From Eledone cirrhosa (lineage: Eukaryota), in assembly GCA_964016885.1 (NCBI GenBank), contig CAXHJY010001235.1:1-44836 (forward strand): a stretch of 44,836 nucleotides of DNA, read 5' to 3'. The position numbers and the translations under genes are program-made. Numbering within the stretch: the stretch's first letter is position 1; every line of letters starts with the position of its first letter. The notes under the pieces are model-generated. The model saw only the letters and a list, made by a program, of their open reading frames with translations, had not been told where the DNA came from and did no database searches. This document shows, one piece after another, positions 19,039 to 21,604 of this stretch.

Positions 19039-19795
19039 ATAATATAATGAAATTATTGTGTAAAGTGCTCAGGTGCACTATAACTTGTCAAAGGTGCATG
19101 TATAGTACATAGAATAATATACAAATGTCAGGGAAGTGAATAGTGTATGAGTCATGATATACATGTGTGTATGTGTATGGAGGGGGAATATTAGGTGTGA
19201 TGTTGGTGAAACTCGGGAAGCATGGAGGCCTTAAAGGATGCTGTGTCTCGACAGCTAACAACTGATGCAAGTAGTTTGTTCCATGGAGGTTTTAAAGGAT
19301 GCAGTGTCTCGACAGCTAACAACTGATGCAGGTAGTTTGTTCCATGGAGGTTTTAAAGGATGCAGTGTCTCGACAGCTAACAACTTATGCAGGTAGTTTG
19401 TTCCATGGAGGTTTTAAAGGGTGCAGTGTCTCGACAGCTAACAACTGATGCAGGTAGTTTGTTCCATGGAGGTTTTAAAGGGTGCAGTGTCTCGACAGCT
19501 AACAACTGATGCTGGTAGTTTGTTCCATGGAGGTTTTAAAGGGTGCAGTGTCTCGACAGCTAACAACTGATGCAGGTAGTTTGTTCCATGGAGGTTTTAA
19601 AGGATGCAGTGTCTCGACAGCTAACAACTTATGCAGGTAGTTTGTTCCATGCTTCAGCAACTCTGAGCGTGAAAAAATGTTTCCGAAAGTCATGGGAACT
19701 GTGCTGTTTTCTGACTTTGTGGGCATGCCCACGTGTGTTAGACACATGGAAATCAAAAAGGTTCTCAGGGTTGTTGTTGGCAACATGGTTAATAA
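19039..19795 (-). mobile_element. CR1-clade LINE 3' end
   Basis: Minus strand encodes NTRGHAHKVRKQHSSHDFRKHFFTLRVAEAWNKLPA*VVSCRDTASFK, followed by a 3' UTR. Confidence 0.85.
19224..19650. repeat. 61-bp minisatellite, 7 copies, inside the CR1 ORF2 end
   Basis: Units start at 19224, 19285 ... 19590, bounded by CATG microhomology. Confidence 0.95.
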
Positions 19796-19931
19796 TATAT
19801 ATATATATAATAAATTCATAGGGATATATGTATATATTTAGACATAGTCACAGATACATATATGAGAGTGGCTACCTTTCACGGTGTGGCTCAATGAAGA
19901 ATTAATTAAGCAAATAATTATTAATCAGAGC

Positions 19932-20963
19932 TATATATAAAATTGCAAGTTTGAAGAATTATTAGATAAAATATATACAGTCTCTCCTCTCCCTAGTCCA
20001 TAGAAACCAACCACATAAATAATCATTTAAACGAAGCCATAAGTTTAAAATGTAACTATGAAGAAATAATAGACAAATGATACAGACTATCTTCCGCGAG
20101 GGACAGCCAGATAAAATTTATCTAGCCATTCCTTTTAGCCCGTAGAAATTAAGTAGACAAATAATCAACTACATGGAGTTAGGTCTAAAATGGAAGTTAG
20201 AAGAAAAAATGCAGATAAACTTTACCAGAATTCCTCTAGTCTCGACTGCCGGCAGTTCCGTTCCTTTTATGCGGATATACCCGATCCTGGATTTATCCAC
20301 GAGGCTTGGAACTTATCAAGAGACACCTCGAGTCTGAACTAAAATTTCTACCGTGATCCCCGCCAGAAATAAATTAAAAAATGGCTAAGAATTATCATGT
20401 GGCTAGTGGTCGAGGAAGAAGATTGTGATTGGTTGCCAGGCGGCGAGTAGGCTGGTTGCTAGAAAGCGCAGCCAGATACTGCCTAAAGTTTTACTCTATC
20501 TTACGGGAATATATATAAAATTCATAGGGATATATCTATATATTTAGACATAGTCACAGATACTCGAGGTGTCTCTTGATAAGTTCCAAGCCTCGTGGAT
20601 AAATCCAGGATCGGATATATCCGCATAAAAGGAACGGAACTGCCGGCAGTCGAGACTAGAGGAATTCTGGTAAAGTTTATCTGCATTTTTTCTTCTAACT
20701 TCCATTTTAGACCTAACTCCATGTAGTTGATTATTTGTCTACTTAATTTCTACGGGCTAAAAGGAATGGCTAGATAAATTTTATCTGGCTGTCCCTCGCG
20801 GAAGATAGTCTGTATCATTTGTCTATTATTTCTTCATAGTTACATTTTAAACTTATGGCTTCGTTTAAATGATTATTTATGTGGTTGGTTTCTATGGACT
20901 AGGGAGAGGAGAGACTGTATATATTTTATCTAATAATTCTTCAAACTTGCAATTTTATATATA
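19932..20963. repeat. 402-bp near-perfect inverted repeat (arms 19932-20333 and 20562-20963) with a 228-bp spacer
   Basis: Arms are reverse complements with one mismatch seen. A 46-bp direct repeat lies at 19812-19857 and 20518-20563. Confidence 0.95.
20571..20656 (+). ncRNA. Variant hammerhead motif (U3-A8 core, G13, branched stem II); mirror copy at 20239-20324 (-)
   Basis: GTCTC-TTGATAA-GTTCC-[two hairpins]-GGAAC-GGA-ACTGCCGGCAGT-C-GAGAC. Confidence 0.6.
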
Positions 20964-20969
20964 TATATA

Positions 20970-21604
20970 TAGGAAAAAAGTATGACCCCGACGGCTATTT
21001 CTGGACAAAGGAACGCTGTACTAGTCTCAAGCTTATTAGCTATCGTCAGCAATGTATGTATATATATATACATACTACTGTATGTCTGTATACATATATG
21101 TATGAACGTGTACATACTTATATTTAAGTAACAGCTGTACTAAAAGTGGGAAACGAAATTTTGTTTCATTTTTTCTGTTTATCGTTTTCGGTGCACCCGG
21201 CCGATTAACCCACTCGATATGCAAATTGGGCTACTCAGCCGTTAACATGCATAAGGTAAGTATATACGTTCAACAATCTGGCAGGAAGGTATATGTTGCT
21301 GACGATAGCTAATAAGCTTGAAACTAGTACAGCGTTCCTTTGTCAGTGTTGAACAAACGAGCAACGATGGTTGCTGGACACTATGGCTTAATACGGGATG
21401 TTTGTTTACAAACACACCGAGCATTATAATAAATGTTCGGTGAATCCATACGCACATATATATATATGTGTGCATGTATGTATATATATATACATACTAC
21501 TGTACGTCTGTATACATATATGTATGTACGTATACATACTTATATTTAAGTAACAGCCGTACTAAGAGTGGGAAATGAAATTTTGTTTCATTTTTTCCGT
21601 TTAT
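20970..21604 (+). mobile_element. Penelope-like pseudo-LTR-type element: inverted hammerhead copy plus partial tandem repeat
   Basis: 21004-21052 is the reverse complement of 21296-21344; ~130-bp direct repeats at 21052-21182 and 21475-21604; bounded by (TA)n; no ORF. Confidence 0.65.
21293..21335 (+). ncRNA. Minimal type I hammerhead ribozyme motif (intact core)
   Basis: ATGTTG-CTGACGA-TAGCTAATAAGCTT-GAA-ACTAGT-A-CAGCGT: stem I 6 bp with two G-U, stem II AGCT/AGCT behind a U-U pair, palindromic stem III, GUA cleavage at 21329. Confidence 0.8.

What the first reader, a model, noticed from the sequence alone, without database searches (positions are those of the whole stretch)
19812..20963. 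Very recent 402-bp fold-back carrying a non-canonical hammerhead with a branched stem II
Seen: arms differ at one position; each holds GTCTC-TTGATAA-GTTCC-[TGGA-taaa-TCCA; CGGA-tata-TCCG]-GGAAC-GGA-ACTGCCGGCAGT-C-GAGAC. All three stems pair perfectly and stem III is a 12-nt palindrome with a GUC site. C3-G8 is replaced by the compensatory U3-A8 (a known natural covariation), A13 is G, and stem II opens into a multi-way junction. A 46-bp direct repeat (19812/20518) completes a pseudo-LTR-like architecture. Inference: a young element with a possibly undescribed hammerhead variant that standard descriptors would miss.
Basis: partly seen in the sequence, partly recalled or inferred. Interest (0 to 1): 0.8.

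Follow-up and report, generated by a model that had tools for sequence, protein, structure and literature searches.

The report
Damaged copy of pseudoknotted hammerhead retrozyme
This is one copy of a 707-base, protein-free repeat with hundreds of relatives in the same genome, whose hammerhead-shaped RNA is predicted to cut itself in intact copies but carries a private, likely inactivating change here, and which was likely pasted into a TA run by the enzyme of a Penelope-type retrotransposon.

Summary
The 402-bp inverted repeat (one mismatch) and the hammerhead fold are real. The locus is one insertion of a 707-nt, ORF-less, head-to-tail repeat family (hundreds of copies): full monomer, 54-nt upstream partial monomer (the "46-bp direct repeat") and an inverted 5'-truncated copy, inside (TA)n. 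That layout is described for Penelope-like elements and non-LTR retrozymes. Family check: U3 is fixed, U3-A8 is the majority core (known covariation); G13 is private damage (A13 in 74 of 76 copies). Copies end at two fixed sites 128 nt apart, both TATATA tracts. "Very recent" is doubtful: no other copy is above 95% identical, the arms share 10 rare variants, and other inverted pairs differ by 5.5%; recent arm homogenisation of an older insertion is more likely than a recent jump. No autonomous parent was found. A modest new variant of a known kind; cleavage is untested.

The parts
19804..20510 (-). Full 707-nt monomer of the repeat family (RNA sense = minus strand); no long ORF
   Evidence: Relatives continue head-to-tail from 19804 into 20510; six-frame translation shows only short frames
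20510..20563 (-).
20562..20963 (+). Inverted 5'-truncated copy (monomer positions 178-579), joined with 2-nt microhomology, ending at family end site A
20565..20656 (+). Hammerhead of the inverted copy: leader 20565-20569, stem I 20571-20575/20652-20656, core TTGATAA 20576-20582, stem II 20583-20587/20631-20635, pseudoknot strand 20591-20595, long hairpin 20596-20623, G13 at 20637, stem III 20639-20650, cut after 20651
20239..20330 (-). Hammerhead of the full monomer (mirror of the above; G13 at 20258, cut after 20244)
19932..19943 (-). End site A: internal TATATA tract at which 47 of 127 copies end; inferred start point of reverse transcription
19802..19813 (-). End site B: TATATA tract at the monomer end; 59 of 127 copies end or run into the next monomer here
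19795..19810 (.). Left (TA)n target run
20956..20971 (.). Right (TA)n target run

Best explanation
The locus is one insertion of a 707-nt, protein-free, head-to-tail repeat family carrying a type I hammerhead fold, likely a non-autonomous Penelope-type element (non-LTR retrozyme) copied in trans by a Penelope-like RT/GIY-YIG protein into a (TA)n run, and this copy's ribozyme is likely dead through a private A13G change. Mechanism: (shown) copies have scattered 5' ends and two fixed 3' ends 128 nt apart, each an internal TATATA tract followed by genomic TA repeats; (inferred) the nicked TA target primes reverse transcription at either tract, one strand from site B through a full monomer into the previous one, the other from site A, and the two cDNAs are joined at a microhomology, giving the fold-back. 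(Shown by covariation) stems II and III and a leader/loop-II pseudoknot are kept; (inferred) intact copies self-cleave after GUC, helped by the pseudoknot, as monomer or through the palindromic stem III as dimer, releasing unit-length RNA. (Inferred, about 65%) the insertion is old and the arms were later homogenised by arm-to-arm conversion, which spread G13 to both.
For: Family: 705-2,700 first-look candidates, 264 and 157 exact pattern matches vs 1 and 0 controls. Tandem/inverted layouts in many loci (21 inverted and 14 direct pairs). 106 of 127 copies end at site A or B; 62 of these are followed by a TA run and 18 by the next monomer. Structure on 66 copies: 90.5% of cells paired, 95 double-changed cells vs 42 shuffled, slid controls 32-41% paired; double changes in stem II (22, 6, 13 copies) and stem III (20, 20). 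Pseudoknot: 5 bp or more in 48 of 66 copies and 8, 6, 5 and 4 bp with other letters in four hammerheads of three 60-66%-identical subfamilies, chance 16% each. Autonomous RT+GIY-YIG elements with a U3-A8 minimal hammerhead that end in (TA)n exist in this genome. Literature: partial tandems plus inverted 5'-truncated copy, tail and (TA)n bias (PMC8557442, passages), two internal RT start sites, both strands primed (PMC11167929, main text), U3-A8 in PLE hammerheads (PMC4209133, main text; PMC3088659 section 8), pseudoknot in about 40% of hammerheads (PMC3088659, passages). Old insertion: best other copy 94-95%; family-A G13 pattern found only here; 1/402 arm difference vs median 5.5% over 21 inverted pairs; 10 rare variants shared by both arms; direct-repeat copies differ at 1-3 of 54 sites.
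Against: No autonomous element with sequence homology to the monomer was found: a profile of 96 copies hit none of the pLTRs in 43 PLE loci, and PLE fragments near family copies were mostly on the opposite strand or unlinked. Stem I shows only one-sided changes. The shuffle control does not correct for relatedness, and 18 of the 66 rows were picked by a pattern that fixes GAAA and limits stem III. The pseudoknot's leader could also pair with stem I in family A (fold). Only 40 candidates are scored per genome search, so a near-identical source copy could be missed or unassembled. The direct-repeat argument is weak (p 0.04 counting 2 of 54 differences, p 0.20 counting 1 of 46). Shared variants in 20 other inverted pairs show no GC bias (12:13), so conversion is not shown as a general process.
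Confidence: 0.8

Rival explanations
1. Recent retrotransposition from an aged source copy that already carried G13; the source is missing from this assembly. Self-cleavage would then be dispensable for copying in vivo.
For: Arms 99.75% identical and share rare variants, as expected if both were copied from one template. Hammerhead-dead RNA still inserted in vitro (PMC11167929, main text). A U3-G8 wobble subfamily also amplified (16 of 66 rows; 26 of 69 at that column).
Against: No copy above 95% among the 40 scored in each of three searches; G13 with family-A flanks occurs nowhere else; the direct-repeat copies differ more than the arms.
Confidence: 0.2
2. The near-identity of the arms (not the element) is an assembly or polishing artefact on a short unplaced contig.
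For: The window is a whole 44.8-kb unplaced contig; no laid record spans the stretch.
Against: The inverted arm stops exactly at family end site A and the right flank is not mirrored; the same layout occurs at 20 other loci; a 188-nt run contig covering G13 matches with no difference at depth 31 vs 19 for the single-copy spacer (one run, possibly the source sample).
Confidence: 0.1
3. One reading: a young element with a new active hammerhead variant (G13, branched stem II).
For: U3-A8 and a large loop II are family traits; pair 57-68 of the second small hairpin has 13 double changes; Rfam misses it.
Against: A13 in 74 of 76 copies; G13 sporadic; long hairpin favoured in 58 of 58 copies; A13 is part of the required core in PMC3088659 (methods passage).
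Confidence: 0.07
4. The monomer is only the pLTR of an autonomous Penelope-like element whose ORF-bearing copies were not sampled.
For: Architecture is that of pLTRs; 5'-truncated copies dominate PLE families (PMC8557442).
Against: Wherever a copy extends 5' of the monomer start it runs into another monomer's 3' end, not an ORF; the same holds for distant subfamily D.
Confidence: 0.08

Closest known systems
Non-LTR retrozymes of animals (Cervera and de la Pena 2020, PMC7229834; Li et al. bioRxiv 10.64898/2026.07.22.740005)
   Same: ORF-less, AT-rich, head-to-tail units each with a type I hammerhead; dispersed monomers and partial tandems; proposed PLE dependence.
   Different: 707-nt unit (about 300 nt typical, 350-390 in mussel; 51-972 range in Li et al.); 6-bp palindromic stem III rather than 1-2 bp; base-paired pseudoknot and long loop-II hairpin; frequent inverted copies; circRNA not shown.
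Penelope-like elements (Penelope/Poseidon, Neptune) and their pLTR hammerheads (PMC4209133, PMC8557442, PMC11167929)
   Same: Partial tandem plus inverted 5'-truncated copy, (TA)n targets, two alternative 3' ends, palindromic stem III, U3-A8 core known from Schistosoma PLEs and seen in this genome's autonomous elements.
   Different: No RT/GIY-YIG ORF; the two ends are 128 nt apart rather than 30-40; both ends are TATATA tracts matching the target, whereas the anole element starts at a site not homologous to the cut DNA; ribozyme is large, not minimal; no homology to sampled pLTRs.
Pseudoknotted type I hammerheads (Perreault et al. 2011, PMC3088659)
   Same: 5-6 bp pairing between the strand before stem I and loop II; U3-A8 covariation.
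   Different: Here in a high-copy animal retroelement, with a 28-nt hairpin inserted in loop II beyond the pseudoknot strand; the window copy fails the core at A13.

Membership tests
Type I hammerhead ribozyme | Stems I, II, III around the core, ends in stem I | tested here: met
   95%, 89%, 96% of cells paired over 66 copies; double changes in II and III
Type I hammerhead ribozyme | Core (C3-G8 or U3-A8) U4 G5 A6 N7 A9, G12 A13 A14 A15, U16 H17 in the family | tested here: met
   U3-A8 in 47 of 66, U3-G8 in 16; A13 in 74 of 76; C3-G8 in distant subfamilies
Type I hammerhead ribozyme | Same core in this copy | tested here: not met
   G at position 13 in both arms
Type I hammerhead ribozyme | Stem I / loop II tertiary contact | tested here: met
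   Pseudoknot of 5 bp or more in 48 of 66 copies and in 3 of 4 distant hammerheads with other letters; by sequence comparison only
Type I hammerhead ribozyme | Self-cleavage after H17 | not testable with these tools
   needs in vitro transcription
Non-LTR retrozyme | Head-to-tail units with a type I hammerhead, no ORF | tested here: met
Non-LTR retrozyme | Two consecutive units with complete hammerheads ('active' by Li et al.) | tested here: not met
   This locus has one full unit, a 54-nt partial unit and an inverted copy, both hammerheads G13; it is a derivative copy
Non-LTR retrozyme | Expression as unit-length linear and circular RNA | not testable with these tools
   needs RNA data of the species
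Autonomous Penelope-like element | ORF with RT and GIY-YIG endonuclease | tested here: not met
   no long frame; no tblastn hit in the window
Autonomous Penelope-like element | Partial tandem plus inverted 5'-truncated copy, alternative 3' ends, microsatellite target | tested here: met
Autonomous Penelope-like element | Sequence homology to the pLTR of an ORF-bearing element | tested here: inconclusive
   none in 43 PLE loci, out of 10,597 GIY-YIG candidates
Autonomous Penelope-like element | Retained spliceosomal intron near the hammerhead (optional feature) | tested here: inconclusive
   a 41-nt GT-AG stretch at 20225-20185 is deleted in 0 of 130 copies and its AG is kept in about half

The most novel reading that the evidence does not exclude
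An undescribed clade of large, pseudoknotted hammerhead retrozymes primes reverse transcription at two TATATA tracts matching the target, and keeps spreading with crippled cores: a U3-G8 subfamily amplified and this G13 copy jumped recently from a ribozyme-dead template, which would be in vivo evidence that self-cleavage is dispensable for Penelope-type mobilisation.
Probability: 0.2. Interest if true: 0.62.

Novelty: new variant of a known kind. Interest (0 to 1): 0.36.

Why it matters
Every component is known (hammerheads in Penelope-type repeats, U3-A8, pseudoknots, inverted truncated copies), so the finding as written is largely explained. What is of some use: a family with natural C3-G8, U3-A8 and U3-G8 cores on one scaffold, with strong covariation, is a ready series for testing core tolerance; the two target-matching 3' ends give a clean genomic test of how Penelope-type RTs start, which differs from the one element studied in vitro; and the anomalous arm identity can tell arm conversion from mobilisation of a ribozyme-dead RNA, which bears on the open question whether these hammerheads are needed at all. 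I found no paper on hammerheads in cephalopod repeats (searches; PMC13282606 has 0 occurrences of hammerhead, ribozyme or retrozyme in its main text); subscription journals and repeat databases were not searchable, and supplements were not read.

Tried and rejected
Rfam: whole window gave only microsatellite-driven miRNA hits below gathering score; 20200-20720 gave no hammerhead at E up to 10. RNAalifold on the 66 copies recovered only part of stem III and an unrelated helix, energy -1.6: uninformative, so structures were tested by named pairs instead. ADAR editing as the source of G13 and other A>G changes: 5 of 10 shared rare variants are A>G (p 0.003, post hoc) and A>G exceeds T>C slightly family-wide (12.2 vs 9.1 per 1000), but 4 of 6 sites have a 5' G, which ADAR disfavours (recalled), and there is no 5' U/A preference: rejected. 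General GC-biased arm conversion: the window's arms show 8 W>S: 1 S>W (p 0.012, post hoc) but 20 other inverted pairs do not (12:13): kept only as a hint for this locus. Intron next to the ribozyme: not supported. Autonomous parent: 43 PLE loci checked without homology; homologous monomers beside PLE fragments (L069/L133, L132) are separate insertions bounded by TA runs. Second allele or empty site: right-flank search found only repeat copies of 97% or less. Sequencing runs: no RNA holder listed; read laying did not span the locus. Earlier scan findings: nothing. No paper with an A13G hammerhead assay was found; Lunse et al. (PMC5785218) and PMC3004062 are not held, so I saw neither.

Full report
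Observation. The inverted repeat is as described: arms 19932-20333 and 20562-20963, 402 nt, 228-nt spacer, one mismatch at 20280/20615. The direct repeat at 19801-19857 / 20509-20563 is 95% identical. Each arm holds the hammerhead-shaped motif, core at 20576 (+) and 20319 (-), predicted cuts after 20651 and 20244; my relaxed descriptor found nothing in 5 shuffled windows, and nothing in the arms when A13 was required. Rfam has no hammerhead hit.

What it is. The window is a whole 44.8-kb contig of a 3.0-Gb genome; from its microsatellite load and repeats I guess an octopus-like host (recalled resemblance, no call). The motif belongs to a repeat family: 705, 2,700 and 2,312 first-look candidates for three segments (40 scored each), 264 and 157 exact pattern matches against 1 and 0 for reversed controls. 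Mapping the loci shows a 707-nt unit (19804-20510, RNA sense on the minus strand); wherever a copy extends upstream it runs into the 3' end of another unit. The unit has no long frame and no similarity to PLE proteins. So the 'direct repeat' is the tail of an upstream truncated unit and the 'fold-back' is an inverted truncated unit. Partial tandems with an adjacent inverted 5'-truncated copy are the described layout of Penelope-like elements (PMC8557442, passages); ORF-less tandems with type I hammerheads are non-LTR retrozymes (PMC7229834, passages; bioRxiv 10.64898/2026.07.22.740005, parts 1-2 of 5, unit lengths 51-972 bp).

Ends. Of 127 non-redundant hits (85% identity or more, 80 nt or more), 47 end at site A (about 19932) and 59 at site B (about 19804); 34 and 28 of them are followed by a TA run, 18 of the B class by the next unit, and 21 end elsewhere; 5' ends are scattered apart from the unit start (rough rule-based classes). 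Both sites are TATATA tracts. The window's full unit ends at B and its inverted copy at A, each in (TA)n. Fixed 3' ends with variable 5' ends imply target-primed reverse transcription (established knowledge). The anole PLE starts internally at two sites and extends both target strands (PMC11167929, parts 1-2 of 4); here the two sites are 128 nt apart instead of 30-40 and match the target, unlike that element. Autonomous elements exist in the genome: 10,597 GIY-YIG candidates; L121 has a 937-aa RT+GIY-YIG frame, two U3-A8 minimal hammerheads 4,979 nt apart, and ends in TA 140 nt after the cut. None of 43 such loci has a pLTR homologous to the unit, so the partner is inferred, not identified.

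The ribozyme. I aligned 66 of 79 recovered hammerheads (13 with indels dropped; 18 of the 66 were picked by a pattern that fixes GAAA). Stems I, II, III are 95%, 89%, 96% paired; stem II has pairs with 22, 6 and 13 double changes, stem III 20 and 20; stem I only one-sided changes; slid controls pair 32-41% (relatedness is not corrected). About 84 of the first 100 listed pattern matches use one of the four Watson-Crick palindromes out of 16 allowed combinations (hand count). Core: U3 in 64 of 66, U3-A8 47, U3-G8 16; subfamilies at 60-66% identity have C3-G8 (L132, L133, L200). U3-A8 is published for PLE and other hammerheads (PMC4209133, parts 1-2 of 4; PMC3088659 section 8). Position 13 is A in 74 of 76 copies, the two exceptions being these arms; G in 1 of 30 copies chosen independently of that position; with family-A flanks G13 occurs nowhere else in the genome. 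A13 belongs to the required core (PMC3088659 methods passage); that A13G inactivates is established knowledge that I could not source to an assay. G13 is therefore damage.

Loop II. The sequence is a quasi-duplication that can pair two ways. One long hairpin (20596-20623) is the MFE, 5.7 kcal/mol below the two-hairpin model, and lower in 58 of 58 gap-free copies; it pairs 87.8% vs 85.9%. Against this, pair 57-68 of the second small hairpin has 13 double changes, but also 16 breaks. Such pseudoknots occur in about 40% of hammerheads and are needed for fast cleavage in tested cases (PMC3088659, passages).

Age. The copy differs from column majorities at 26 of 707 sites, with a rare-variant load of 2.0% against a family median of 2.9% over 89 copies; the best other copies are 94-95% identical. 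Yet the arms differ by 0.25% while 21 inverted pairs have a median of 5.5% (next lowest 1.9%), and they share 10 rare variants. Either an old insertion had its arms homogenised, or an old, unsampled, G13-bearing template jumped recently. For the first: no source copy, the direct-repeat copies differ at 1-3 of 54 sites (p 0.04-0.20), and the shared variants are 8 W>S: 1 S>W against 0: 3 outside the arms (p 0.02, post hoc). Against a general rule: other inverted pairs show no such bias. An assembly artefact is less likely because the arm stops at site A, the flank is not mirrored, and a 188-nt run contig over G13 matches exactly at 1.6 times the spacer's depth (one run, perhaps the source sample; no record spans the locus). 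I put these at about 65, 20 and 10%.

Verdict. A decayed copy of an apparently undescribed family of a known kind. The family's large pseudoknotted hammerhead and two target-matching ends make it a modest variant; the two features that made it look exotic (G13, branching) do not survive the family comparison. Cleavage, expression and the mobilising partner are untested. Supplements of the cited papers were not read and could list similar motifs.

Noticed in passing
window 21004-21604: A second, unrelated hammerhead-bearing repeat directly to the right: about 422-nt unit in partial tandem (21052-21182 / 21474-21604) with a canonical minimal hammerhead (core at 21299, cut after 21329, + strand) and an inverted truncated copy at 21004-21052; 2,576 candidates, copies 96-97% identical, a five-unit tandem at L205. 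A younger retrozyme-like family.
   Followed up: partly
L121 (G000:C1:145869500-145876500), L122, L130: Nearly intact autonomous Penelope-like element with a 937-aa RT+GIY-YIG frame, a CxxC linker (Neptune-like, recalled label), U3-A8 minimal hammerheads in both pLTRs and a 3' end in (TA)n at an internal TATATA.
   Followed up: partly
L132:30-1541, L133:6266-7484, L200:2532-2943: Distant subfamilies of the same 700-nt unit (60-66% identity) with C3-G8 cores, different palindromes and the same leader/loop-II pseudoknot.
   Followed up: partly
family A copies, e.g. L012, L019, L024, L026, L103, L120: A subfamily with a U3-G8 wobble in the core (16 of 66 rows) that travels with other diagnostic letters, so its master copy likely carried it.
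   Followed up: partly
window 19964-20210: Old internal duplication of about 140 nt within the monomer (69-74% identity); some subfamily-B copies seem to lack one repeat.
   Followed up: no
L131:6486, L198:279: A third hammerhead family with a canonical core and a different stem II.
   Followed up: no
window 19221-19651: Seven-copy 61-nt tandem array (95-96% identity) left of the element.
   Followed up: no
window 20428-20432 (minus strand): CCAAT-like box about 100 nt upstream of the hammerhead; similar boxes precede the hammerheads of L121 and L069. Possible internal promoter, untested.
   Followed up: no
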